Virus record (IMG/VR): IMGVR_UViG_2934563053_000002
Location: 14,455 to 78,454 of that record
Origin: a virus
Taxonomy: Duplodnaviria > Caudoviricetes
Reading direction: 5' to 3' (one strand)
DNA: 64,000 nucleotides
Below, piece after piece: positions 5,748 to 64,000 of this stretch. Under the pieces are notes generated by a model. The model saw nothing but the letters and a program-made list of their open reading frames with translations. It ran no database searches and was not told the origin of the DNA. Position 1 is the stretch's first letter, and each line of letters starts with the position of its first letter. The position numbers and the translations under genes are program-made.

Positions 5748-6470
5748 ATGCCAAACCCCTGCCCCACCCCGGACAAGGTCCGCTACGCCACCCGAGCCGG
5801 CGCCGAGCAAGGCGCCCACCGCGCCCGGCTCCACTTCGACGACACCGTCTACCCGTATGCGTGCTCGTGCACGTGGTGGCACCTGTCCAAGAACCAGCCC
5901 GAGTCCACCCCGAGCCCGGAGGACGCGAGCCGTGCCGCCATCGAGCGGGTAGCCGCTCTCCCCAGCATCGCCTTCCGGGAGATCGTCGCCAACGACGCAG
6001 CCGGGAAGGGAGACCGTGATGAGCGTGGGGCACTGCGCGCTCCGGTGAACTTGACCCGTTGGCGTCGGGCGCTTGGCGAACTGCTGCACGACGTGCAAGA
6101 GCAACTGACGTCGAGCCGCTGGAACAAGACGTTGGCCGCGCAGGACTGGCGGAAGCGGGCGACCGGCTACCAGGAGCAGCTGCTGCGACGGCAGGTGGAG
6201 TGCAAGCAGCTGCGGGCGGATGCGCACGCGGTGGGTGTGTCGAGCCGTGTGGCGTCGCGGCGGCGTGTGGTGGATGCGGCTCGGTTGTCGGGCGCTCCGG
6301 TGAAGGAGTTGCGGCGGCTGGCTGGCGAGATGGCGGTGGATCGGCTGATCGAGGCTCATCGGGGCGAGTTCGATGGACTGCTGGCTGAGGAGTACGCCGC
6401 GGTGGATCTGCCGCTGCCGGAGGGCGTCATGCAGCGGATGACGGAGGCGGAAGTGGGAGCGGCGTCGTGA
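5748..6470 (+). CDS. Hypothetical protein with N-terminal CPTPDK..Y.C.C.WWHL zinc-binding motif
   Basis: Motif and GAGGA RBS. Confidence 0.7.
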   Translation: MPNPCPTPDKVRYATRAGAEQGAHRARLHFDDTVYPYACSCTWWHLSKNQPESTPSPEDASRAAIERVAALPSIAFREIVANDAAGKGDRDERGALRAPVNLTRWRRALGELLHDVQEQLTSSRWNKTLAAQDWRKRATGYQEQLLRRQVECKQLRADAHAVGVSSRVASRRRVVDAARLSGAPVKELRRLAGEMAVDRLIEAHRGEFDGLLAEEYAAVDLPLPEGVMQRMTEAEVGAAS

Positions 6471-6919
6471 GCCTGCGCCTCGTGCCGGTCCGCTTCCGCC
6501 AGGCCCAAGCGTTCTGTGCGATGTGGCACCGGCACCATCCGGCGCCCCGCGGCATGGTCTTTGCCGTCGGTGTCGCCGATCAGCACGGTGTGCTTCGCGG
6601 TGTCGTTGTCGTCGGCCGGCCCGTCGCCCGGCACCTGGACAACGGGCAGACGCTGGAGGTCACCCGCACCGTCACGGACGGCACGGTCAATGCCAACTCG
6701 ATGCTGTACGGCGCGGCGACAAGGGCGGCATGGGCGCTGGGCTACACCCGGTTGATCACGTACACGCAGGCGGGAGAGAACGGTGCGAGCCTGCGCGCGG
6801 CCGGGTGGCGCGTGCTCGCTAAGCGGCCTGCCACCCCGGGCTGGGACCGGCCGTCCCGCCCGCGTGAGCCCCGCGGTACGGAGCACATGCCGCGAACGCT
6901 GTGGGAGGCCGCCTCATGA
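6467..6919 (+). CDS. XF1762 family (Mom-like GNAT fold) protein
   Basis: HRHH, GVVVVGRPVARHLD, LEVTR, NANSMLYGA, LITYT..ENGASLRAAGW. Confidence 0.8.
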   Translation: MSLRLVPVRFRQAQAFCAMWHRHHPAPRGMVFAVGVADQHGVLRGVVVVGRPVARHLDNGQTLEVTRTVTDGTVNANSMLYGAATRAAWALGYTRLITYTQAGENGASLRAAGWRVLAKRPATPGWDRPSRPREPRGTEHMPRTLWEAAS

Positions 6920-10160: not shown

Positions 10161-10235
10161 GCCCGAGTCGCGCAACCGGAAGACGCACCCGCCTTAAAAG
10201 CGGACCCAGTGCCGGTTCGAATCCGGCCTCGGGCA
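10161..10235 (+). tRNA. tRNA-Leu, anticodon UAA (decodes TTA; bldA-equivalent), short variable loop, no encoded CCA
   Basis: Acceptor GCCCGAG/CTCGGGC with discriminator A; D arm GCG..GG..CGC; anticodon loop CT-TAA-AA (10193-10199); T arm GCCGG-TTCGAAT-CCGGC. Confidence 0.88.
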
Positions 10236-10263
10236 CAACCCACACGACGCTGAAGGGAACCCG

Positions 10264-10863
10264 ATGAACAACCCCGGCCCGAGCCCCGACTGCGGCGAGG
10301 GATGGGCCTTCGCCCGACGAGTACTCACCGACCCCGCCCGGCAGCGCGAGACGCTCGCCAGCCTCGACCGGGCTCTCGACGGCATCACGCCGACCCCTGT
10401 CCCCGACACCTTCCGCGCCCGCCAAGGAGCAGCCATGACCGACCCCACCGTGACCGACCTGCTGCGCGAGCTGTACGAGTACGCGGGGCACGGCTACCAC
10501 TGCGACAACGTGGCCCCCGAGACAGCCCAGACCTACGAGGAATGGCTGTCCGACACGGCCCACGACCGGCCCGCCGTAGCCGCCGCCAAACAGGCAGCGC
10601 GCGCCCAGCAGCCCCCGCCACCCGGTTCGACCCGCGAGCAGCTCCCCGACCACCTCCTCGCACTCATCGACGTGCCGCCGTACACCAGCACCGCATGTGA
10701 GACGGCCCACGAGTGCGAGCGCGTAGTCGACGTCCACACCGAGCACGCCGAGGAACTCCGGACAGCGGCGGCCGGCCAGCTTCACGACCGGTGCCGCCGT
10801 AACAACAAGTTCACCGGCGTCACCTGCGGCTGCGCCTGCCACCAGGCGAAGGAGCAGCCGTGA
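10264..10863 (+). CDS. Hypothetical protein (alternative start 10435)
   Basis: YTSTAC...CRRNNKFTG..C.C.CH; internal GGAG RBS. Confidence 0.6.
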   Translation: MNNPGPSPDCGEGWAFARRVLTDPARQRETLASLDRALDGITPTPVPDTFRARQGAAMTDPTVTDLLRELYEYAGHGYHCDNVAPETAQTYEEWLSDTAHDRPAVAAAKQAARAQQPPPPGSTREQLPDHLLALIDVPPYTSTACETAHECERVVDVHTEHAEELRTAAAGQLHDRCRRNNKFTGVTCGCACHQAKEQP

Positions 10864-11000
10864 CCCGCGTCTACCGGTGGCTGACCACCCCAGTCGCCGT
10901 GCCCCGCTGGGTACGCATCGGGGTCCTCACCGCATCCGCCTTGCAATGCGCCGCCTGGCTACTCCAAGGGGCGACCTGGGCCCTCGCCCACCTCACCCGC

Positions 11001-11043
11001 TGACCCCCTGCCCGGCCGTTGGGGTCGGCCGGGCAGGGGGTCA
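11001..11043. terminator. Perfect 18-bp hairpin ending the early operon
   Basis: TGACCCCCTGCCCGGCCG-7nt-CGGCCGGGCAGGGGGTCA. Confidence 0.75.
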
Positions 11044-11295
11044 CGGTTCAATAACGGAAGATTTGGCCGTGAGCGCGTGAAAGCGTAGGCAGCCCGTACT
11101 CAGAGCGTAGCCACAACACGCAACAGACCTCAGTTGGCCGAAGCCCTGACGCAGACCACCACGTCGAGCCCGCAGGCGAGCGATATGCTGCTCCTGCTTG
11201 ATCTCCCTCGCACCAACTTGCCGCCCAGCGCTGTAAGTCGGCGGCGGCGAGCCCCCGGCCAACCACCGGGAGGTTCACCGAGGGAGGGAGAGCAC

Positions 11296-11427
11296 ATGGA
11301 CGATGAAGAAATGGGCATGCCGCCGGAGCCGCCGTGGAGCAGCTTCGAGCGGTGGTCGATCATCCTCGCGATGTTAGGCGTGCTCATGGCAACCATCTCC
11401 GTGGTGGCGCAGTTCGCGATGCGGTAA
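11296..11427 (+). CDS. Small single-TM peptide containing a TTA codon
   Basis: GGAGGGAG RBS; 43 aa; hydrophobic WSIILAMLGVLMATISVVA; TTA at 11374; hairpin terminator at about 11515-11551. Confidence 0.6.
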   Translation: MDDEEMGMPPEPPWSSFERWSIILAMLGVLMATISVVAQFAMR

Positions 11428-11697
11428 CCCACCGCACGCCCGGGAGCGACCGACAGCCGCTGCACACGCAGCGAGCCCGGTCTCTTGATAGGCGACCGGG
11501 CCCGTGAACTGCAAGAAGGGCCTGTCCTGGTGCCCGCCAGGCGGGCCCTTCGCCATGCCCAGCGTTCAAGGACTGTGCTACCCGTACTTGCTCGCGAGCA
11601 TGTACCCAGACCATAGCACGGGCATTTGTGGGAATCATGAAAACAGTAAGCGAAAGCCGCAGGTCAGAACCACCGAACATCCCACCGGCTGGGCCGC

Positions 11698-13074
11698 TCA
11701 AGCTGGCAGGTTCCCGGCGAGGTACTCCATCGCGCGCTCATCCAGCTCTGCCGCACACCGCAACCCCCGAGCCCGGAACCGGCCCAAATCCCGCCGCATA
11801 CCCCGCACCGCCTTCACCGTCCGCGCCGACCGCACACCCTCCATGTGATCCAGGGCCTGATGCCACGTCGCGCACGCCTGCTCGATCCCACCCCGCTTGA
11901 GCTGCATCTCCGCACTCGCCACCAGATCGAGCGCCACGATCCGCGCATACGTCCCGGACGGCCGCGCGCCGGCCGCCCGGCCGTACTGCTCAGCCGCCGC
12001 CCGGTGATCGCCCAACGTCTCGTGGACCTTCGCCGCCCGCGAATACACCGACGCAGCCGGCGGCCCCCACGCCATACCCCAGAACGGCACCTCATCGCCA
12101 GGCGCGTCCTCCAGCATGCGACGCGCCCGCTCGGCCTCGACCAGTGCTGTGCGCCGCTGGCCGGACTTCGCCAGCGTGTGGGCGTGGACGATGCGGAACA
12201 GCGCCTCCGTCCGCGAGTCGACCCGCCCCTTGGCCCGGTTCAGTCCCGTCTCCGCCAGCCCAAGACAGTGCTCCGGCCGACGCAACTTCAGCCCCTGCAT
12301 CGCCATCGTCCGCATCACGAACCCGTCATGCCCGACCAGCCCGGACTCCTCGGCGAGCCTGAACGACTGAAGGTAGTACCGCTGCGCAACACCCTGCTGC
12401 CCGGCGTCATACGCCTTCCAGCCCAGCAGATGCACACCACGGGAAGCCGCAGACAGCATCTGCTGGCGCGCCTCCTCAGTGCGGAACCGGGCCCGGCACA
12501 ACGGCGCCACATCGTCCCGCAGATACTGCACGAGCGCCGTCCGACCGTGCTGCCCACCATGCCGCTCGTCCATATCCGAGAACATGCCGATCATGTCGCG
12601 GACCGCGGCGACCTCGACCATGCCGACAACAGTGCCGGAGCGCGCCGCGACCGTGCGCTCCGCGGCGTCTCTCACGGAGGCCAGCGGGAGAGCAGCGGCG
12701 GCCACCGAGTAGGCGGACGATGCGAGGAGGCGGCGTCGGTCCACTTCGTTCCTCCACAGCGGTAGCAGCACATCGATCGGATCGGGCCCCAACGTGAGTC
12801 CGACGTCCTCATCCTCCTCCGGCCAGTCGAGGCCGATATCGGCCGGGGCCAGCAGCCGGCCCAGCAGCCGAGACAAGGCCACCGCCAAGTACCGGGCCGT
12901 CATAGCCGACGGGAGGGTCCCGGCGACCCAGTGCGCGATCGCTGACTTGTTCGTCCGCAGATGGTCCCCGCACTCGGCAGCCACGGCGCGTACCGCGCGA
13001 GCCACCGCATCGTAGGGCAGACCGGACTCCTCAATGACGTCTCTGAGCTGGGTGTTCGGCTTCCGCGTGGTCAT
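11698..13074 (-). CDS. Large Streptomyces-type transcriptional regulator (N-terminal HTH, C-terminal TPR-like helices)
   Basis: RKPNTQL..LRTNKSAIAHW..G..P, DRRRLL, DERHGG, LGWKAYDAG..AQRYY. Confidence 0.85.
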   Translation of the reverse strand: MTTRKPNTQLRDVIEESGLPYDAVARAVRAVAAECGDHLRTNKSAIAHWVAGTLPSAMTARYLAVALSRLLGRLLAPADIGLDWPEEDEDVGLTLGPDPIDVLLPLWRNEVDRRRLLASSAYSVAAAALPLASVRDAAERTVAARSGTVVGMVEVAAVRDMIGMFSDMDERHGGQHGRTALVQYLRDDVAPLCRARFRTEEARQQMLSAASRGVHLLGWKAYDAGQQGVAQRYYLQSFRLAEESGLVGHDGFVMRTMAMQGLKLRRPEHCLGLAETGLNRAKGRVDSRTEALFRIVHAHTLAKSGQRRTALVEAERARRMLEDAPGDEVPFWGMAWGPPAASVYSRAAKVHETLGDHRAAAEQYGRAAGARPSGTYARIVALDLVASAEMQLKRGGIEQACATWHQALDHMEGVRSARTVKAVRGMRRDLGRFRARGLRCAAELDERAMEYLAGNLPA

Positions 13075-13204
13075 GCAGCTCCTGCCGTTAAACCGGATAA
13101 ACCACGTGCCCGCTCGTAACCGTACCCACGGACAGCCCACGGGAGTTCACTGTTCGTCAGGCCCCCGCACCAGCGGGTGGCGCAACCTCAGGGAGGGAAC
13201 ACCC

Positions 13205-13519
13205 ATGACGACCGCGATCACCCCCACCGCGCAAGCGGACCCGCTCGCCCCGCGCCTGCTGCCGGGCGTCGGCGCGCTGTCCCACTCGACTGCCGCCCCC
13301 AGCACGGGGGCAACCCGCCCGTTCGGGCTGACCTGCACCACACCCCTCGCCGGCAACGCCGCCGCCGCGTCCCTCGACGGCCTCACCTACGACCCGCAGC
13401 GCCAGGTCAACGTCCACCACGACGGTGCCCCTCTCTCCAGGGACGACCTGATGCTCCACGCCGGCACGAGCCAGAACACCCAGGCCGACCACCAGTGGTG
13501 GACCGACAAGGACCAGTGA
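13205..13519 (+). CDS. Graspetide (ATP-grasp-modified RiPP) precursor peptide
   Basis: GGGAGGGA RBS; leader motifs RPFG and YDPQRQ; Thr/Ser...Asp core TSQNTQADHQWWTDKDQ; directly upstream of ATP-grasp ligase. Confidence 0.88.
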   Translation: MTTAITPTAQADPLAPRLLPGVGALSHSTAAPSTGATRPFGLTCTTPLAGNAAAASLDGLTYDPQRQVNVHHDGAPLSRDDLMLHAGTSQNTQADHQWWTDKDQ

Positions 13520-13525
13520 TATCCG

Positions 13526-14494
13526 ATGCCTGCTTCTGTCGCGATCATCACCCGTGATCAGGACACAGCCGCCGACCTCGTCGTCCACGAACTACGCAAG
13601 CGCGACGCGGTCATCTACCGGTTCGACCTGGCCGACTTCCCCACCCGGATGACCCAGGCCGCCTACCTGATCCCCGGCCGCGCCCGCTGGACCGGAGCGC
13701 TCAAGGGGCAGCACCGCGACGTGGACCTCTCCGGACTGACAGCCGTCTGGTACCGCAAACCGTCCACCTTCCGGCTGCACCAGGGCATGTCTGCGACAGA
13801 GCAGGAGTGGGCGGCCACCGAAGCCCGAGCCGGCTTCGGTGGCCAGCTCGCCGCCCTCCCAGGCGTCCGCTGGATCAACCACCCGCACCGCAACGCCGAG
13901 GCCGACCACAAGCCGCTCCAGCTCGCCCGCGCCGACGCCTGCGGACTCGCCGTCCCCGAGTCGCTGCTGACCAACGACCCCGACGCAGCCCGCGCGTTCT
14001 GCCACGCGCACCACGACACCGGGGTGATCTACAAACCGCTGCATGGTGGCCCCGCAAACGAGAACGGCCAGCCAGTCGCCCTCTGGGCAACCAGCGTCAC
14101 CGCCGACGACATCACCGACGGAGTGGCCCGCAGCAGCCACCTCTTCCAGGCTCGGATCCCCTGCGCCTACGCGGTCCGACTCACCGTCGTCGGCGAGCAG
14201 ATGTTCGCTGTCCGTATCGACGCCCCCGAGGACTCCGCAGCCGTCGACTGGCGACAGGATCACGACCAGCTCCGCTACACCCCCATCGACGTGCCCGACG
14301 ATGTGGCCGCGGGGACGCGCCAACTCTTGCAGTCCTTCGGCCTCACCTACGCAGCCATCGACTGGGTCGTGACCCCCGACGGCCAGTGGACGTTTATCGG
14401 AGACCTGAACCCGAACGGGCAATGGGGCTGGATCCAGGCGCACACGGGCCTGCCGATCGCCGCTGCCATCGCCGACGAACTCGCCCGGGAGTAG
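13526..14494 (+). CDS. ATP-grasp ribosomal peptide maturase (graspetide synthetase)
   Basis: D.TADLVV, RFDLADFP, AVWYRKP, WINHP..AD.KPLQL, LLTNDP, IYKPL, HLFQ, DWRQD, DLNPNGQWGW. Confidence 0.93.
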   Translation: MPASVAIITRDQDTAADLVVHELRKRDAVIYRFDLADFPTRMTQAAYLIPGRARWTGALKGQHRDVDLSGLTAVWYRKPSTFRLHQGMSATEQEWAATEARAGFGGQLAALPGVRWINHPHRNAEADHKPLQLARADACGLAVPESLLTNDPDAARAFCHAHHDTGVIYKPLHGGPANENGQPVALWATSVTADDITDGVARSSHLFQARIPCAYAVRLTVVGEQMFAVRIDAPEDSAAVDWRQDHDQLRYTPIDVPDDVAAGTRQLLQSFGLTYAAIDWVVTPDGQWTFIGDLNPNGQWGWIQAHTGLPIAAAIADELARE

Positions 14495-14496
14495 CC

Positions 14497-15621
14497 GTGA
14501 CCATCGCCGCCGACCACTCCGAACAGTTGCGTCACCGCCTCGTCGACCAGCTCGTCGACCGCGGATACCTGCACGACTCCCGCTGGATTGCTGCGTTCCG
14601 CGCGGTACCGCGGGAAGCGTTCGTGACGCGATACAAGGTGCTCTCACCGGACGGCACCCACCAACACCACGACCTCGCCGACCCCGAACACCTCGACGAC
14701 GCCTTGGCCGTCGCGTACTCCGACGCGCCCCTCATCACGCAGACCGACGCGTGTGGCACGCCGACGTCGTCGAGTACGGCCCCCAGTCTGATGGCGCTCA
14801 TGCTCGAAGCCCTCCAGGCGGAGCCCGGCATGAGGGTGCTGGAGATCGGTACTGGTACCGGCTACAACGCGGCGTTGCTCTCACACGCTCTCGGGGCCGA
14901 GGCGGTCACCACAGTCGACATCGACCCAGCCCTCACAGCCGCGGCGGAGGAGGCGCTGCACCGAGTCGGCTACCGCCCAACGGTGGCCGGCCGAGTTGCA
15001 GGCCACCGGGAGCGGGGGCCGTATGACCGGCTGATCGCCACATGCGGAGTCGCACGAGTCCCCACGGCTTGGCTGGAGCAGTTGCGGCCCGGCGGTTTGG
15101 TCCTGGTTAACATCGGGTTCGGTCTCGTGCGCCTCACGGTCGGGGCCGACGGCACGGCGACCGGCAGGTTCCTGGACTACGCCAGCTTCATGCAGGCCCG
15201 CGAGGACACCGCCACCCAGGCGGCCACCGCTCGTGACGCACTCGCCCTCACCGACCGCTCCGCGCCCCGCACCGACGCTGTGTTCCCGGATTGCCTCGAC
15301 GAGCGGCCGTTCGTGTTCCTGCGCTCGGTGATGATGCCGGGCGTCCACCAGGTCGTCGAACATCTTCCGGACGGGCCGGAGTACGTCCTCGCGGATCACG
15401 CCAGCGGTTCATGGACACGGGCCCGACGGTGTGGCAGGGGCGCCGCTGTCGCTCAGGGCGGGCCGCGTCGGCTGTGGGATGAGCTGTGCAAGGTGGCCGC
15501 TTCCTGGAGTGCGCATCACCGGCCGCCGTTGTCTTCGTATGGACTGACCGTGTATCCGGACGGACGGCATGTGCTCTGGCTTGGCAGCCCAGATGGGCCG
15601 TCCTGGCCGCTGTCTGGCTGA
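14497..15621 (+). CDS. PIMT-like protein L-isoaspartyl O-methyltransferase of graspetide cluster
   Basis: AFRAVPRE.F, SSSTAPSLM..ML, VLEIGTGTGYNAALL, YDRLIATC, C-terminal QGGPRRLWD..YGLTV. Confidence 0.9.
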   Translation: MTIAADHSEQLRHRLVDQLVDRGYLHDSRWIAAFRAVPREAFVTRYKVLSPDGTHQHHDLADPEHLDDALAVAYSDAPLITQTDACGTPTSSSTAPSLMALMLEALQAEPGMRVLEIGTGTGYNAALLSHALGAEAVTTVDIDPALTAAAEEALHRVGYRPTVAGRVAGHRERGPYDRLIATCGVARVPTAWLEQLRPGGLVLVNIGFGLVRLTVGADGTATGRFLDYASFMQAREDTATQAATARDALALTDRSAPRTDAVFPDCLDERPFVFLRSVMMPGVHQVVEHLPDGPEYVLADHASGSWTRARRCGRGAAVAQGGPRRLWDELCKVAASWSAHHRPPLSSYGLTVYPDGRHVLWLGSPDGPSWPLSG

Positions 15622-15685
15622 CCGCATACGACGACGCCCCGCCCAACCGGGCGGGGCGCTCACACGTGGCGCGGGACGAGCGCGG

Positions 15686-15958
15686 TCACACGGCGGACGC
15701 CAACTGCTCCCACATCCACGGCGTGTGGGTGGTGTGGCGCCGCTGGCGTCCGCAGGTGCGACAGTGCGTCGGTCGCCAGCGCGCCTGCGGGGTGAAGGTG
15801 TGGAGCGGCTTGAGCCAGTGGCCTTCGGCTTGCAGGTGGTCGCCCCGGTGCTGGCCGCAGCGGTCGCAGATCCAGTAGCCGTCCGAGCCGTCTGGCTGGA
15901 CCGGGCCTTCACGGAACCAGTGGTCCGTGACCAACGGCCGGGCAGTCACGGCCGCCAC
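15686..15958 (-). CDS. Small Cys/His-rich protein
   Basis: CDRCGQH, CRTCG..H motifs. Confidence 0.5.
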   Translation of the reverse strand: MAAVTARPLVTDHWFREGPVQPDGSDGYWICDRCGQHRGDHLQAEGHWLKPLHTFTPQARWRPTHCRTCGRQRRHTTHTPWMWEQLASAV

Positions 15959-16356
15959 TCCTCGTAGTAGTCGGGGTGGTCCGCGTAAGCGGAGGCCAGA
16001 TCGCGGCAGGCGTCCCAGTAGGCGGCGCGAAGCGAGCTGAGGGACCGGGCGGGCTCCTTTTCCGCCTCGAACGTCTCACGGTCAAGCTGCATGTGTTCCT
16101 CGCACTTGCTCACGATTCGCCGCTTGGCGTCGACCTCGGCGAGGACCCGGGCCGGATCATGCCGGGCGATGTGGGTGGCGGCATAGGGCCAAGTGCGGCG
16201 GACGACACCCACGCCACTCGCTGCGCGGACCTCGCTACCGTCGGAGTCGGTCACGTTCCACGAAGCCCCGTGAGGTTCACGCGTGGCAGCGTGTTTCGCG
16301 GCCTGTGCGTCTTCGTCGAGCCGCTCCCGCAGGAACGCCACCAGGTCAACCGTCAT
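15946..16356 (-). CDS. DUF6221 family protein
   Basis: DLVAFLRERLDED...HIARHDPARVLAEVDAKRRI...LA..YADHPDY.EEWRP. Confidence 0.85.
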   Translation of the reverse strand: MTVDLVAFLRERLDEDAQAAKHAATREPHGASWNVTDSDGSEVRAASGVGVVRRTWPYAATHIARHDPARVLAEVDAKRRIVSKCEEHMQLDRETFEAEKEPARSLSSLRAAYWDACRDLASAYADHPDYYEEWRP

Positions 16357-19106: not shown

Positions 19107-19335
19107 GCCCCGCCGACACGCCGCCGCTGTCCGCCCCGGTCACCACCGTGCCCACCCGCTCCGGCACCCGCGCCGCGATACACCGCCACGACTACCACCA
19201 GCCCAGCCCCCGTGGCGGCTTCACCCGGCACGGCTACGCCTGGCGCTGCCCTACCTGCACCCACACCGCCACCGGCTACACCACCTACACCCCCGCCCAC
19301 ACCGACGCCTCCCACCACCACTGCCAGGAGCAGCC

Positions 19336-20016
19336 ATGACCACCGGCCTCTTCATCCTCGCCGCGGCCGTAGCGCTGCTGTGGCTCCACCCCCGTGACCG
19401 CCACCGGCCCGGCCCCGGAGCGTCCGCCACCGCCCGCGCCCGCCAACTACGCACCCCCCTCGTCCGTCTCGCCAGCCTGCTCGGTATCTCCACCCGCCGC
19501 GGCCGGGCCGCCGCCCGCTTCGAGGCGGGGGCCGTAGGCGAGCGCGCTACAGCCCGGCTCCTTGCCCCTCTGGTGGGGGAGGGGTGGTCCCTGCTCCATG
19601 ACAGGGCCCTGCCCGGCAGCCGCGCCAACGTGGACCACCTGGTCATCTCCCCGACGGGGGTGGTCCTCGTCCCGGACTCCAAGCGCTGGTCCGCCCGCTA
19701 CGAGCTGGCGGTGTGGGAGGGGCGGTTGTGGCACGGCGGGCGGGATGTCACCGACCGGCTCAACGGGCTCCGGCACGAGACCGCCGCCGTCGCCCGCCTC
19801 CTGGGCGTGCCGGTGGTGCCGCTGGTGGTGATGCACGGCGCCCCCCTGCCCGAGGCGGGCCTGCTGGTGGCCGGTATTCGCATCGTGCCTGCCAACCGTG
19901 CCGTCTCGGTGCTACGGCGTATCGGGGCCGCTCCCGGGCGGCAGAATGCTGCGCTGCTACGACGCCGCGCTGCCCGCCTGCTGCCGCCCTACCAGGAGAG
20001 GCCGGGGCATGGCTGA
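19336..20016 (+). CDS. Membrane-anchored NERD (nuclease-related) domain protein
   Basis: N-terminal TM; GAVGERATA, LHDRALPGSRANVDHLVISPTGV..DSK.W. Confidence 0.85.
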   Translation: MTTGLFILAAAVALLWLHPRDRHRPGPGASATARARQLRTPLVRLASLLGISTRRGRAAARFEAGAVGERATARLLAPLVGEGWSLLHDRALPGSRANVDHLVISPTGVVLVPDSKRWSARYELAVWEGRLWHGGRDVTDRLNGLRHETAAVARLLGVPVVPLVVMHGAPLPEAGLLVAGIRIVPANRAVSVLRRIGAAPGRQNAALLRRRAARLLPPYQERPGHG

Positions 20017-23312: not shown

Positions 23313-23705
23313 CTACGGCCGCCACTCCATCTTGTAGCCGTCGTGATCCGCGTACAGGGCGGCCATGCGGCGCAGCGTGCCGCAGTCCTCACCATCCACC
23401 GCGCACACATAGCCTCCGTCCCCATCGGAATGCAACGCGTGTTCGGTGAGCAGCCACTCCAATAGGTCAACCTCCGCGAAGGTCCGCGTCGGATCGTGCC
23501 GCGCGATGTGGGTCAGCTCGTCCTCGTTGAGGCTGCTCGTCCTGTCGAGGTGCTCGGTACCGAGATCGACATAGACGTTGTCCTCGTCGCGTCGGAGTTC
23601 CCAGGTTGGCTTGGCCCACGGGGCGCCGGCCGGGCGCTCGGCGAACTCCTTGTCCTCGGCGACGCGTAGCCACAGGAAGTCGGTCAGGTCACGGTCCATG
23701 CTCAT
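23313..23705 (-). CDS. DUF6221 family protein (second copy)
   Basis: DLTDFL..RVAED...HIARHDP.R..AEVD...TLRRMA.LYADH.GY..EWRP. Confidence 0.85.
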   Translation of the reverse strand: MSMDRDLTDFLWLRVAEDKEFAERPAGAPWAKPTWELRRDEDNVYVDLGTEHLDRTSSLNEDELTHIARHDPTRTFAEVDLLEWLLTEHALHSDGDGGYVCAVDGEDCGTLRRMAALYADHDGYKMEWRP

Positions 23706-62602: not shown

Positions 62603-64000
62603 ATGGCCGACCCGATCAAGAAAATCACCCTGCGAGACGGCAGCACCCGCTGGCGATTCGTCGTCGACGCCGGAGTAACGCCGGAGGGAAAACGCAAGCA
62701 GATCACCGGCACGAAGGACACGAAAGCCGAAGCCGTCGCCGAGCGCGCCCGCATCGTCCACCAGCGCACCGCCGGCACCCTCGTCGTCCCCTCGAAGATG
62801 ACCGTCGACGAACTCCTCGACACCTGGCTCAAGACCGCCACCCGCGATGTCGAGGAGGGCACGGCCACCAACTACGACAACGCCATCCGCCCCATCCGTC
62901 GCAGGCTCGGGCACATGCGGGTGCAACAGCTCACGGAGGAGGACGTCGAAGCGTTCATCGACTGGATGGTCACCGAGGGCAGGCAGCGCGGCGGCAAGCC
63001 GGGCACTGGCCTGAGTGTCCGCTCCGCACGGTTGTCCCTCGGTCGGCTGAGGTCGGCCCTCACTCTGGCGGTGCGCCGCGGCATCGTGGTGCGGAACGTG
63101 GCCGAGCACGTGAGGGTTTCCCGGGAGGCGCAGCGCAAGGCCGCGTCTGTCACCAAGACCCGCGGCGCGCCGTGGGATCAGGACGAGGTGCGGCAGTTCC
63201 TCGCGGGCATCGTCAACCACCGGCTGTGCGGCCCGATGATGTTGGCGTTCATCGCGGAGCGGCCGGCTGAGGTGTGCGGCACCCGGTGGGCAGAGGATGT
63301 CGACCTCGACGCGGGCACGATCGCCGTGGGCGACAACACCCGCACCATCGTCTACGACCGCACCCTGGAGAAGGGCAAGCGCAACAAGGTCGTCGAGAAG
63401 ACAGCCAAGACCGAAGCCGGCCGCCGTGCCCTGCCCCTGCCCATCCCCGTACTCCGGGCGCTCTCGGTGGCTCGCACGGTCCAGGCGCAGGAGAAGGAGT
63501 ATGCGGGCCGCGGCTACGAGGACAGCGGCTACGTCCTCGTCGACGAGTTGGGGAGGCCGTTCAAGACGGACAAGCTGCGGCGCGAGGCGTACAAGTTGAT
63601 GGATGCGACGGGCGTGCGGCGGGTGCGGCTGTATGACGCGCGGCACGCGGTCCTCACGTGGATGGCGAACAACGGCGTGCCCGACACCGTCGTCTCCGCG
63701 TGGGCCGGGCACACCGACCTGTCGTTCACGAAGCGGGTGTATGTGCACTCCGACCCGCACAGTCTCCGGGCCGGGTCGGAGAAGCTGGGGGAGCTGCTGG
63801 CGAGTCCGGAGCCGCGGGTGCCGGATCTGCCGGCGCCGCGGGCGGACGCGGAGCGGGTGGAGTGGTCGCCGGGTGGGCGGCGGTTGCGGACGCACTGCCG
63901 CCACGGGCACGAGTACACGCCGGAGAACACCTACATCGCTCCGGGGACCGGGTACCGGCAGTGCCGGGCGTGCCGGAGCGGCAACCAGCAGTCGGGGTAG
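62603..64000 (+). CDS. int: Tyrosine integrase with C-terminal Cys/His zinc-binding extension
   Basis: Arm-binding N-terminus (GKRKQ); catalytic ERPAEV, AKTEAG, RLYDARH, WAGH...VY; tail [14 protein letters not shown]...CRAC. Confidence 0.92.

What the first reader, a model, noticed from the sequence alone, without database searches (positions are those of the whole stretch)
11698..15621. Complete graspetide (likely aspartimidylated) RiPP cluster with divergent regulator inside the prophage
Seen: precursor (RPFG and YDPxRQ leader; core ...AGTSQNTQADHQWWTDKDQ), ATP-grasp ligase and PIMT-like methyltransferase in one operon, divergent from a 458-aa HTH plus TPR-like regulator. The shared intergenic region has TAAACC-GGA-TAAACC (about 13089-13103) and hairpins bound the unit. 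No protease or exporter is present. Established: this trio makes Thr/Ser-Asp ester-crosslinked graspetides with an aspartimide (fuscimiditide/amycolimiditide type), whose biological role is largely unknown. Inference: a phage-borne modified peptide that stays intracellular or is released by lysis could be the ligand of the neighbouring regulator (a lysis-lysogeny or spread signal), or an anti-defence or exclusion effector.
Basis: partly seen in the sequence, partly recalled or inferred. Interest (0 to 1): 0.8.

Follow-up and report, generated by a model that had tools for sequence, protein, structure and literature searches.

The report
Phage-borne graspimiditide cassette with portable regulator
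A Streptomyces-type prophage carries a complete three-gene set for a small cross-linked peptide of a known family whose purpose nobody knows, placed under a mobile regulator that elsewhere controls quite different gene clusters, so the phage offers a handle on what these peptides are for.

Summary
Window 13205-15621 (+) encodes a precursor (TIGR04186), an ATP-grasp maturase (TIGR04187, above cut-off) and a PIMT-like methyltransferase (TIGR04188-like). This is a graspimiditide, or group-13 graspetide, cassette. It faces a 458-aa NsdA-family HTH+TPR regulator (11698-13074, -). The cassette lies well inside an IMG/VR provirus, between replication genes and virion genes.

New here:
- The core is a small type with conserved T88/T92, D95-H96 and D101/D103. 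I predict two esters and an Asp-His aspartimide.
- Related cassettes sit in at least 19 provirus records, scattered over the enzyme tree.
- The TAAACC-GGA-TAAACC repeat is the regulator's own conserved tandem element, not a cassette feature.
- Orthologues of this regulator (58-75% identical, 11 loci) never sit beside an ATP-grasp. They face radical-SAM, KASIII-type and lasso+PIMT clusters instead.

The regulator is therefore a portable cluster-situated regulator. The reading that the peptide is its ligand has no comparative support. The chemistry is a known kind. I found no report of phage carriage in the literature I searched, but this scan noted it earlier on other DNA (e1-5941459). The biological role remains open.

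The parts
10997..11045 (.). Strong GC-rich hairpin (perfect 18-nt arms) after the last early-operon gene (10264-10863). It marks the left edge of the mixed-orientation island.
   Evidence: the repeat finder. Strand folding: -49.6 kcal/mol, z -7.1, 0 of 200 shuffles fold as well.
11046..11697 (.). About 650-nt stretch downstream of the regulator with no confident gene. Unexplained.
   Evidence: No ORF passes the GC3 codon-position filter. No Rfam match. No DNA homology to the flanks of the regulator's orthologues.
11698..13074 (-). NsdA-family regulator, 458 aa: N-terminal lambda-repressor-like HTH (about res 8-80), a low-confidence linker (85-128), and a TPR-like superhelix (126-458).
   Evidence: NF053720 1.3e-112. 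phrog_10886 2.7e-69, full length. AF2 model pLDDT 85.9. TPR matches. The N-domain model's top hits are all Cro/C1-type HTH domains, at weak E of 0.5-2.
13088..13103 (-). Tandem direct repeat GGTTTATCC-GGTTTAA on the regulator's strand (equal to TTAAACCGGATAAACC on +), 15-30 nt upstream of the regulator's ATG. Probable operator.
   Evidence: Conserved in position, with both units changing together, in 10 orthologue loci: GGTATATCGGGTATAC, and GGTATCACGGGTATCAC in L133. 9-nt-period repeats also occur in distant family members L040, L073, L137 and phage Ponzi. Only exact site in the window.
13118..13152 (-). Two conserved boxes of the regulator's 5' region: GGTACGGTT (13118-13126) and CAGTGAAC (13145-13152). 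Promoter-like (inferred).
   Evidence: Conserved columns in the alignment of 11 upstream regions. The sigma-70 consensus scan found no site here.
13205..13519 (+). Precursor peptide, 104 aa. The leader has RPFG, YDPxxQ and DGxP. The core is about res 85-104, HAGTSQNTQADHQWWTDKDQ. Predicted ester donors are T88 and T92, acceptors D101 and D103, and the aspartimide site is D95-H96.
   Evidence: TIGR04186 5e-8. Alignment of 10 relatives: invariant G41, G59, Y62, D63, G74, P76, D95, D101; near-invariant Q67, T92. Cores of 89 loci. The cross-link assignment is inferred, not shown.
13526..14494 (+). ATP-grasp ribosomal peptide maturase (graspetide synthetase), 322 aa.
   Evidence: TIGR04187 9.5e-119, above cut-off. 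Pfam MvdD pre-ATP-grasp domain. Closest solved relatives are 9bou and MdnC 5ig9.
14491..15621 (+). PIMT-like O-methyltransferase with a C-terminal extension, 376 aa. GTGTG SAM motif at res 120. The C-terminal motif reads WSAHHRP where relatives have WxxxGxP.
   Evidence: PCMT 7.3e-30. TIGR04188 full length, 342.5 bits, below the cut-off of 380. phrog_13505 8.9e-86. Motif check against 86 homologues.
15633..15660 (.). GC-rich hairpin (10-bp perfect stem) 12 nt after the methyltransferase stop, between convergent genes. Probable bidirectional terminator.
   Evidence: -27.6 kcal/mol (+) and -28.9 kcal/mol (-), z -5.1 and -4.2.

Best explanation
This is an intact graspimiditide (group-13 graspetide) cassette carried as accessory cargo by a temperate actinophage. 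It is joined to a portable NsdA-family cluster-situated regulator.

Proposed working, with the status of each step:
1. The regulator (HTH+TPR) binds the tandem repeat GGTTTAT-CC-GGTTTAA in the 130-nt shared control region. That site lies in its own 5' leader and about 100 nt upstream of the precursor's start. It would thereby autoregulate and gate the divergent operon. (Inferred.)
2. The ATP-grasp recognises the conserved leader (RPFG, YDPxxQ, DGxP). It esterifies Thr side chains to Asp side chains, most likely T92-D101 and T88-D103, giving a small two-ester stem-loop. (The enzyme family is shown. The residues are inferred from conservation.)
3. The PIMT-like enzyme methylates the invariant loop Asp95, which cyclises onto His96 to give an aspartimide. 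(Inferred by homology. An Asp-His site is predicted in the literature for some clusters but not yet demonstrated in a graspimiditide.)
4. There is no dedicated protease or exporter, and the precursor has no signal peptide. Trimming would be by host proteases, and the peptide would stay inside the cell or be released at lysis. (Inferred.)

The biological role is open. My split is about one third a lysogen-benefiting product, about one third an intracellular phage-host or phage-phage effector, about one fifth hitch-hiking cargo, and under one tenth a signal sensed by the regulator.
For: Family assignment of all four genes.

Phage location:
- The window is part of a provirus record, with phage genes on both sides.

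Recurrence in viruses:
- 19 of 24 IMG/VR loci carry an ATP-grasp at 39% identity or more. 16 of those 19 have the methyltransferase next door.
- I annotated 8 loci. All 8 have phage or mobile-element genes within 10 kb: tail and lysis genes in L014, L016 and L026, tail genes in L017, and replication or recombination genes in L018, L019, L021 and L012.
- On a quick maximum-likelihood tree of 95 ligases, the 20 viral rows need 14 label changes, at least 12 of them forced.

Regulator linkage:
- A strong NsdA-like hit lies within 10 kb in 17 of 80 genomic loci, and is upstream and divergent in 14 of the 80.
- Those 14 loci cover at least 8 different core types.
- The family has 20-47 matches per genome. 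By my own arithmetic, chance adjacency within 3 kb is therefore about 1%.

Portability of the regulator:
- Orthologues are found in 16 of 151 Streptomyces genomes, one each. The tally includes one genome flagged unpublished, G134.
- In the 11 loci examined the divergent cargo differs each time. It is radical SAM + Amdase + PfkB; FAA hydrolase + acetaldehyde dehydrogenase + DmpG-like + KASIII; lasso cyclase + B-protease + PCMT; rSAM-SPASM; or B12-rSAM.
- DNA homology to the window covers only 11715 to about 13165.

Operator: the repeat is conserved and evolves in concert.

Core: D95 and D101 are invariant and T92 nearly so. The residue after D95 is H, N, M or G in relatives.

Literature: the graspimiditide core is described as a Thr/Ser stem, a loop with Asp-Xaa, and an Asp/Glu stem. 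His is listed among predicted n+1 residues (bioRxiv 10.1101/2023.06.21.545981, section 5 read; review PMC13001092, passages).
Against: - Nothing here shows expression, modification or DNA binding. No RNA run was available.
- The methyltransferase scores below TIGR04188's curated cut-off, and its WxxxGxP motif has His in place of Gly.
- Donor spacing (3 residues) and acceptor spacing (1 residue) are unequal. This differs from the equal spacing reported for fuscimiditide and amycolimiditide, so the ester map may be wrong.
- Most regulator-linked loci have a small HATPase_c_2 gene between regulator and precursor, and the window lacks it. Regulation here may therefore differ.
- The closest cassette relatives lack this regulator, so the pairing could be recent and not yet functional.
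- The consensus promoter scan found no sigma-70-type site.
Confidence: 0.72

Rival explanations
1. Arbitrium-like reading: the modified peptide is the ligand of the TPR regulator and reports phage density or lysis, steering lysis-lysogeny or spread.
For: - The regulator has the HTH+TPR architecture of RRNPP receptors.
- RRNPP proteins are among the structural matches: phage phi105 Rap 8rte_B at Z 17.6, NprR at 14.2, PlcR at 13.2.
- The peptide gene is adjacent and divergent.
- NsdA-like regulators recur next to graspimiditide cassettes.
- 3 of the 11 orthologue loci, plus the window, lie within 7 kb of a PIMT-type methyltransferase. The PCMT family has only 2-13 genes per genome.
Against: - Orthologues 58-75% identical face cargo with unrelated chemistry.
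- Unrelated eukaryotic TPR proteins score as high or higher (TSK/BRU1 at Z 19.6, APPBP2 at 19.4), so the fold match is generic.
- The precursor has no signal peptide or RR motif in any of the 10 relatives, and there is no exporter or importer.
- The phage has separate lysogeny modules: ImmA plus a divergent gene at the left end, and XRE genes plus an integrase at the right end.
- Other phage cassettes pair with GntR or XRE regulators.
Confidence: 0.06
2. The regulator is not dedicated to the cassette. It is a phage-carried NsdA-type regulator that manipulates host development or other phage genes, and its adjacency to the peptide operon is incidental.
For: - NsdA-like regulators occur in isolated temperate phages without any ATP-grasp (SV1 gp24, Tubberson/SoJo gp25, Ponzi gp1, Raleigh, ToastyFinz, Vondra), in an accessory slot.
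- Their conserved divergent partner is a small HATPase_c_2 protein, not a RiPP gene.
- A second, imperfect tandem repeat lies in another intergenic region at 19277-19291.
- NsdA of S. coelicolor is a pleiotropic repressor of differentiation and antibiotic production (recalled, and named 'transcriptional repressor NsdA' in NCBIfam).
Against: - The divergent arrangement recurs in 14 of 80 loci, against about 1% expected.
- The conserved repeat lies inside the 130-nt region that must also hold the precursor's promoter.
- Orthologues are consistently divergent from a biosynthetic operon.
Confidence: 0.15
3. The cassette is host DNA wrongly included in the provirus call, or a separate element nested in the prophage, and is not packaged phage cargo.
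For: - IMG/VR provirus borders are approximate. In several other records the cassette lies at the very edge (L008, L012, L013, L014, L022-L024).
- The island has mixed gene orientation and is bounded by strong hairpins.
- L012=L034 sits among transposases and a plasmid-like replication initiator.
Against: - Here the cassette is about 26-30 kb into a 78-kb record.
- Phage early and replication genes lie to the left, and phage-family genes (phrog_6326/DUF6221, phrog_16651, NERD, terminase onward) lie to the right.
- No integrase or transposase flanks the island.
- L026, L021 and L017 show the same kind of cassette between bona fide phage genes.
Confidence: 0.04

Closest known systems
Graspimiditides / group-13 graspetides: fuscimiditide (ThfA/B/M), amycolimiditide (AmdA/B/M), albusimiditide (GsaA/B/M), SsfA
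   Same: - Same three-gene logic: precursor, ATP-grasp, PIMT-like methyltransferase with a C-terminal extension.
- No protease or exporter.
- Actinomycete origin.
- Core with a Thr/Ser donor stem, a loop carrying a conserved Asp-Xaa, and an Asp acceptor stem.
   Different: - It is carried on a prophage.
- The core is short (about 20 aa), with probably two esters and unequal donor and acceptor spacing.
- The predicted aspartimide site is Asp-His, whereas all four characterised members have Asp-Gly.
- The methyltransferase motif is WSAHHRP instead of WxxxGxP.
- It is paired with an NsdA-family regulator. The papers I searched do not contain the word 'regulator' or 'phage'.
NsdA family TPR-like regulators of Streptomyces (NCBIfam NF053720; NsdA, NsdB)
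   Same: Full-length profile match far above the cut-off. The family has many paralogues, 20-47 matches per genome.
   Different: - Only weak matches to the NsdA and NsdB equivalog models themselves: 71.5 and 75.2 bits against cut-offs of 830 and 700.
- This orthologue group is patchy (16 of 151 genomes) and sits next to varied small biosynthetic clusters.
- A copy on a phage facing a RiPP operon has not been described in what I searched.
RRNPP peptide-sensing regulators, including phage arbitrium AimR-AimP and phage Rap-Phr
   Same: HTH+TPR architecture. A small peptide gene lies next to the receptor gene. Both occur on temperate phages.
   Different: - No sequence-family membership.
- The structural similarity is no better than to generic TPR proteins.
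- The peptide is a 104-aa leader-core RiPP precursor without an export signal.
- The peptide is predicted to be cross-linked, not a short linear secreted peptide.
- Orthologous regulators occur without any such peptide.
Accessory slot of SV1-like and Austintatiousvirus Streptomyces phages (SV1 gp24-26; PapayaSalad gp24-29; Alderaan gp33-37)
   Same: A divergent 'regulator | small cargo operon' module carried by temperate actinophages.
- SV1 and Tubberson carry an NsdA-like regulator (about 31% identical).
- PapayaSalad and Alderaan carry a homologous methyltransferase (38-39% identical, full length).
- Provirus L026 combines both with a full cassette in that same slot.
   Different: - Those isolated phages have no ATP-grasp.
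- Their slot lies between the lysis genes and the integrase, whereas here the module lies between the early and late genes.
- The regulator in PapayaSalad and Alderaan is XRE-type and not detectably related.

Membership tests
Graspimiditide (group-13 graspetide) gene cluster | ATP-grasp maturase of the SAV_5884 / TIGR04187 type | tested here: met
   396.2 bits against a cut-off of 350, full length. Sits in a 99%-supported clade of such ligases.
Graspimiditide (group-13 graspetide) gene cluster | Precursor of the TIGR04186 type, with a C-terminal core made of a Thr/Ser-rich stem, a loop with a conserved Asp-Xaa, and an Asp/Glu-rich stem | tested here: met
   32.9 bits against a cut-off of 25. 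T88, T92, D95-H96, D101 and D103 are conserved across 10 relatives. The layout matches that described.
Graspimiditide (group-13 graspetide) gene cluster | PIMT-homologous O-methyltransferase with a C-terminal extension carrying WxxxGxP, encoded next to the ligase | tested here: inconclusive
   - Full-length TIGR04188 match at 3.4e-102, but 342.5 bits is below the cut-off of 380.
- The GxGxG motif is present.
- The C-terminal motif reads WSAHHRP (W and P kept, G replaced by H), whereas 75 of 86 homologues have WxxxGxP.
Graspimiditide (group-13 graspetide) gene cluster | Omega-ester cross-links and an aspartimide actually formed on the peptide | not testable with these tools
   Needs expression and mass spectrometry.
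NsdA family TPR-like regulators (NF053720) | Full-length match to the family profile; N-terminal DNA-binding domain plus TPR-like domain | tested here: met
   - 377.5 bits against a cut-off of 75, covering positions 1-432 of 432.
- AF2 model with a TPR-like superhelix at 126-458.
- The top hits of the N-domain model are all lambda-repressor-like HTH domains, at weak E-values.
RRNPP / arbitrium-type peptide-receptor pair | Receptor belongs to an RRNPP sequence family | tested here: not met
   - No RRNPP family among the Pfam, NCBIfam or PHROG hits.
- phmmer against PDB sequences finds no RRNPP chain at E up to 1.
RRNPP / arbitrium-type peptide-receptor pair | Receptor fold specifically like RRNPP TPR domains | tested here: inconclusive
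   phi105 Rap at Z 17.6, NprR at 14.2 and PlcR at 13.2, but unrelated TPR proteins reach Z 19.6 and 19.4.
RRNPP / arbitrium-type peptide-receptor pair | Adjacent propeptide with an export signal, matured to a short linear peptide | tested here: not met
   - No hydrophobic N-terminal stretch (maximum Kyte-Doolittle value over 12 residues is 1.21) and no RR motif in any of the 10 relatives.
- The peptide matches a RiPP precursor profile.
Temperate tailed phage (provirus) | Hallmark genes on both sides of the feature within one record | tested here: met
   Replication initiator, DnaC-like, TerL, portal, major head, tape measure, endolysin, holin and integrase genes. IMG/VR provirus record with 87% estimated completeness.

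The most novel reading that the evidence does not exclude
NsdA-like HTH-TPR proteins are a large, undescribed class of actinomycete and actinophage sensor-regulators. Each would recognise its own tandem 9-nt repeat. In this orthologue group, the TPR domain would sense an aspartimide- or isoaspartate-bearing RiPP, or its precursor. On this reading the phage-borne graspimiditide and its regulator form a self-sensing circuit, a cross-linked-peptide counterpart of arbitrium, that couples phage or host decisions to accumulation of the peptide. The hint in favour is that 3 of the 11 orthologue loci, plus the window, lie beside PIMT-type methyltransferases.
Probability: 0.07. Interest if true: 0.9.

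Novelty: new variant of a known kind. Interest (0 to 1): 0.55.

Why it matters
Graspimiditides number over a thousand predicted clusters, four have been characterised chemically, and none has a known role. The 2026 review names the link to biological function as the main open problem.

A cassette that temperate phages have picked up repeatedly, and that sits in a small genome that can be deleted and induced, makes that question testable with ordinary phage genetics: lysogen fitness, induction, superinfection and host development.

The regulator result also stands on its own. It gives a candidate operator rule (tandem 9-nt repeats that co-vary between paralogues) for a family with dozens of copies per Streptomyces genome. 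It also shows one orthologue group acting as a plug-in switch for different small biosynthetic clusters, which could help in activating silent clusters.

Tried and rejected
- The look-up of sequencing runs listed no RNA holder, only one DNA run that may be the source.
- Single-protein scans of IMG/VR with the ligase and the regulator found nothing usable. A neighbouring phage gene found only a 37% relative.
- No close relative of the phage backbone was found in INPHARED. TerL is at most 53% identical, and megablast of window 1-25000 gave no match. A with-and-without-island comparison was therefore not possible.
- The metagenome scan gave only short contigs. L141 has too little upstream sequence to judge. 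L142 has about 840 nt upstream of its precursor with no regulator hit.
- The sigma-70 consensus scan found no promoter. The one terminator-like site lies inside the regulator's coding sequence.
- Rfam found only the tRNA.
- PapayaSalad's 407-aa regulator is not detectably related to the window's regulator by BLASTP.
- Foldseek and VIA-align cannot separate RRNPP proteins from generic TPR folds.
- 'Not in print' rests on these searches:
  - graspetide+aspartimide
  - graspetide+prophage (3 papers)
  - graspetide+phage (22 papers, of which only 17 titles and abstract openings were seen)
  - NsdA+Streptomyces+TPR
  - graspimiditide (7 papers)
  - RiPP/phage-encoded/BGC/prophage
  - term look-ups inside six papers
  
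  bioRxiv supplements, including the lists of graspimiditide clusters, could not be seen and may hold loci that lie in prophages.

Full report
**What is there.**
- On the minus strand, 11698-13074 encodes a 458-aa protein. It matches NCBIfam NF053720, the NsdA family of TPR-like regulators, over the full profile (E 1.3e-112, 377.5 bits, cut-off 75). It also matches phrog_10886 'transcriptional regulator'.
- On the plus strand follows a 104-aa precursor at 13205-13519, behind a GGGAGGG ribosome-binding site. It matches TIGR04186 at 32.9 bits against a cut-off of 25.
- Next is a 322-aa ATP-grasp at 13526-14494. It matches TIGR04187 at 396.2 bits against a cut-off of 350, and Pfam's MvdD pre-ATP-grasp domain.
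- Last is a 376-aa PIMT-like methyltransferase at 14491-15621, whose GTG start overlaps the ligase stop. It matches Pfam PCMT at 7.3e-30. It matches TIGR04188 over its full length at 3.4e-102, but 342.5 bits is below that model's cut-off of 380.
- The closest solved relatives are graspetide ligases (9bou, MdnC 5ig9) and Thermotoga PIMT 1dl5.

**It is inside a phage.**
The window is bases 14455-78454 of a 78,454-bp IMG/VR provirus record, with an estimated completeness of 87%.
- Upstream of the window lie an ImmA/IrrE-type peptidase gene and a plus-strand early operon with GerE, PAPS-reductase-like, RecT-like, DpdA and two WhiB genes.
- Inside the window, replication-initiator, DnaC-like, Mom-like and sigma/GerE genes precede the region.
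- Terminase, portal, scaffold, major head, connector, tape-measure, tail, endolysin, holin and integrase genes follow it.
- The cassette belongs to a mixed-orientation island: regulator on minus, cassette on plus, then four small minus-strand genes.
- Strong hairpins mark 10997-11045 (-49.6 kcal/mol, z -7.1) and 15633-15660 (-27.6 kcal/mol, z -5.1).
- About 650 nt between the first hairpin and the regulator's stop hold no recognisable gene.

**The peptide.**
I recovered precursor-like ORFs upstream of the ligase in 89 of 104 related loci, then aligned the ten closest.
- The leader has invariant G41 (RPFG), G59, Y62, D63 (YDP), G74 and P76, with Q67 nearly invariant.
- In the core, D95 and D101 are invariant and T92 nearly so. 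T88 and D103 are conserved in most sequences.
- The shared pattern is T-x3-T-x2-D-[H/N/M/G]-x-x-W-x-D-x-D.
- The literature describes graspimiditide cores as a Thr/Ser donor stem, a loop with the first conserved Asp-Xaa as the aspartimide site, and an Asp/Glu acceptor stem. It lists His among predicted, not yet demonstrated, n+1 residues. All four characterised members have Asp-Gly (bioRxiv 10.1101/2023.06.21.545981, section 5 read; review PMC13001092, passages).
- I therefore predict a small stem-loop with esters T92-D101 and T88-D103 and an aspartimide at D95-H96. This is an inference. The unequal spacing of donors (3 residues) and acceptors (1 residue) differs from the characterised examples.
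- The methyltransferase keeps the GTGTG SAM motif. At the conserved C-terminal WxxxGxP position, present in 75 of 86 homologues, it reads WSAHHRP.
- None of the ten precursors has a hydrophobic N-terminal stretch or a twin-arginine motif, and no protease or exporter is nearby. The peptide is therefore likely to stay in the cell or be released at lysis.

**How common on phages.**
- Among isolated phages (INPHARED), no Streptomyces phage carries such a ligase. The only two records with a match are a faecal phage contig and a Leptospira phage.
- Five S. venezuelae phages (Alderaan, PapayaSalad, Bioscum, Ididsumtinwong, Austintatious) carry a homologous methyltransferase at 37-45% identity. In four of them the match covers 93-96% of the protein; in Austintatious it covers 58%. 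It lies next to small ORFs and a divergent XRE-type regulator, in the slot between the lysis genes and the integrase or repressor.
- In IMG/VR, a profile scan gave 24 loci. 19 have ligases at 39% identity or more, and 16 of those 19 have the methyltransferase adjacent.
- I annotated eight of them:
  - L026 is an SV1-like prophage ordered endolysin, holin-like genes, NsdA-like regulator (minus), then HATPase_c_2, one unknown gene, precursor, ligase, methyltransferase, and then the integrase.
  - L014 and L016 place the cassette beside the lysis genes.
  - L017 places it beside head-tail genes.
  - L018, L019 and L021 place it among replication or recombination genes.
  - L012 (the same locus as L034) sits in a transposase-rich element with a plasmid-like replication initiator.
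- In species-representative genomes the family is abundant. At least 570 stretches matched and 80 were kept, and 71 of those 80 have the methyltransferase adjacent.
- On a quick maximum-likelihood tree of 95 ligases, the 20 provirus rows need 14 label changes, at least 12 of them forced by well-supported branches. The window sits in a 99%-supported six-row clade with Pseudonocardiaceae loci and two other proviruses. The careful search did not finish, and 'genome' rows may also lie in prophages, because two provirus rows are identical to genome rows.
- Phage carriage therefore looks recurrent and polyphyletic.

**The regulator.**
- An AlphaFold model from 26 sequences (pLDDT 85.9, pTM 0.74) shows a helical N-domain (8-80), a low-confidence linker, and a TPR-like superhelix at 126-458.
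- The N-domain modelled alone (pLDDT 82.4) matches only lambda-repressor/Cro-C1-type HTH domains, at weak E-values of 0.5-2.
- The TPR part matches many TPR proteins. RRNPP members score well (phi105 Rap Z 17.6, NprR 14.2, PlcR 13.2), but no better than unrelated eukaryotic TPR proteins at Z 19.6 and 19.4.
- NsdA-family genes are numerous, with 20-47 matches in each of five actinomycete genomes.
- Even so, a strong family member lies within 10 kb of the ligase in 17 of 80 genomic loci and 3 of 19 viral loci. It is upstream and divergent in 14 of the 80, across at least eight different core types. By my own arithmetic, chance would give about 1% within 3 kb.
- In most of these loci a small HATPase_c_2 (anti-sigma-kinase-like) gene lies between regulator and precursor. 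The same regulator-HATPase_c_2 pair occurs in phages SV1 and Tubberson without any RiPP genes.
- The window lacks that gene, so the regulator faces the precursor directly across 130 nt. L081, with a related core, appears similar.

**The regulator is portable, and the repeat belongs to it.**
- The window's regulator has hundreds of close relatives. The 119 best listed are 69-89% identical.
- It is nevertheless present in only 16 of 151 Streptomyces genomes searched, once each. The tally includes one genome flagged unpublished, G134.
- I fetched 11 of these loci. None has a ligase or precursor within about 9 kb (tblastn).
- The operon divergent from the regulator differs between loci:
  - radical SAM + Amdase + PfkB (L130, L138)
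  - FAA hydrolase + acetaldehyde dehydrogenase + DmpG-like aldolase + KASIII (L129, L131, L136)
  - asparagine-synthase-like lasso cyclase + transglutaminase-like protease + PCMT methyltransferase, which is a lassimiditide-like trio (L132, L135)
  - rSAM-SPASM + an ATPase (L139, which also has a methyltransferase homologue 6.7 kb away)
  - B12-radical SAM (L137)
  - unknown genes (L133, L134)
- Nucleotide homology to the window covers only 11715 to about 13126-13165, which is the regulator and its 5' region.
- In that 5' region, a tandem direct repeat lies 15-30 nt before the ATG in all ten aligned orthologues. It reads GGTATATCGGGTATAC in most, GGTATCACGGGTATCAC in L133, and GGTTTATCCGGTTTAA in the window.
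- Both repeat units change together. Two further boxes, CAGT(C/G)AAC and GGTAC(G/C)GT, are conserved upstream.
- More distant family members also have 9-nt-period repeats there: L040 GCGTTTA x2, L073 CTTGAAA x2, phage Ponzi TGAAAG x2 and L137 CGGTATA x2.
- I read this as the regulator's own operator in its leader, flanked by promoter-like boxes. Because the same 130 nt must hold the precursor's promoter, occupancy there should also affect the cassette. Binding has not been shown.

The peptide-as-ligand model loses its comparative basis.
- Near-identical regulators serve unrelated chemistry.
- The cassette's closest relatives lack this regulator (L033, L034/L012, L014, L142) or use a GntR/UTRA regulator (L019). 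Other phage cassettes use XRE types.
- The phage has separate lysogeny modules.
- One hint keeps a small probability alive. 3 of the 11 orthologue loci, plus the window, lie within 7 kb of a PIMT-type methyltransferase, although such genes number only 2-13 per genome. Two of the three loci are the same cluster type, so independent events are few.

**Comparison with what is known, and novelty.**
- By profile, gene order and core layout this is a member of the graspimiditide family. Only the methyltransferase criterion is borderline.
- It is not an RRNPP system by sequence, and its peptide lacks the defining export signal.
- None of the graspimiditide, imiditide or pamtide papers I opened contains 'phage' or 'regulator'.
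- The preprint on phage-borne biosynthetic clusters contains neither 'ATP-grasp' nor 'graspetide'.
- My literature searches found no report of phage-carried graspetides. Supplementary cluster lists could not be read.
- This scan had already noted a phage-carried graspimiditide cassette on other DNA (e1-5941459), so phage carriage is not new to the scan.
- What this window adds:
  - a second, independent phage context, between early and late genes
  - evidence that carriage is recurrent
  - a core subtype with a predicted Asp-His site
  - the identification of the neighbour as a portable cluster-situated regulator with a conserved, co-varying tandem operator

**Verdict.**
I class it as a new variant of a known kind, of moderate interest, mainly as an experimental route to the unknown function of aspartimidylated graspetides and to the NsdA-like regulator family.

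Noticed in passing
window 10161-10236 (+): The phage carries a tRNA-Leu with anticodon UAA, the rare bldA-type tRNA of Streptomyces, just left of the island. None of the 69 genes I called in the window (15,866 codons) contains a TTA codon, so the tRNA may serve host TTA-containing genes rather than the phage's own.
   Followed up: partly
L002:4810-6149 (phage PapayaSalad) and L001:4747-6149 (phage Alderaan): Isolated S. venezuelae phages carry a graspimiditide-type methyltransferase without a ligase. It is preceded by a 48-69-aa Gly/Ser/Asp-rich ORF ending ...SSDGSGP(S/A)K(K), which resembles the loop part of graspimiditide cores. This is probably an imiditide/pamtide-like cassette. I did not find it mentioned in the pamtide or imiditide papers.
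   Followed up: partly
L132:5135-8925 and L135:5260-8948 (Streptomyces genomes G111, G076): Orthologues of the window's regulator (about 63-73% identical) face a lasso-cyclase / transglutaminase-like protease / PCMT-methyltransferase trio. This is a lassimiditide-like cluster, and a second aspartimide-type RiPP class under the same regulator group.
   Followed up: partly
L004 (SV1 gp24-25), L005 (Tubberson gp25-26), L026:6320-8222, L021:4878-7342, L080, L095, L076: NsdA-like regulators are repeatedly paired, divergently, with a small HATPase_c_2 (anti-sigma-kinase-like) protein, both in isolated temperate phages and in chromosomes. This looks like a conserved two-gene regulatory module of unknown function.
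   Followed up: partly
window 19277-19291 (+): A second tandem repeat with the same 9-nt period, TACACC-ACC-TACACC, lies in the intergenic region about 45 nt before the NERD-domain gene (19336-20016). Given 0.24 matches expected by chance, it may be nothing, or it may be a second site for an NsdA-like protein.
   Followed up: no
window 11046-11697: About 650 nt between the big hairpin and the regulator's stop have no gene with proper codon bias, no Rfam match and no homology to the flanks of the regulator's orthologues.
   Followed up: no
L112:11630-12625, L112:3842-4723 and window 6467-6919: The phage encodes a DpdA-like protein (7-deazaguanine DNA modification), a PAPS-reductase-domain protein and a Mom-like protein. 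This suggests that its DNA is chemically modified.
   Followed up: no
window 15946-16356 (-) and 23313-23705 (-): Two diverged DUF6221 / phrog_6326 paralogues, both on the minus strand in an otherwise plus-strand phage. One lies directly after the cassette.
   Followed up: no
window 62603-64000 (+): The tyrosine-integrase ORF carries an HNH-endonuclease-like C-terminal stretch and runs off the end of the record, so the right border of the provirus is not contained in the record.
   Followed up: no
L003:3791-5656 (Saccharomonospora phage PIS 136): A PIMT-like methyltransferase, annotated in two pieces, lies directly after an HTH_31 (WhiJ-like) gene and a DUF397 (BldB-like) gene. This is another regulator-plus-methyltransferase pairing on an actinophage.
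   Followed up: no
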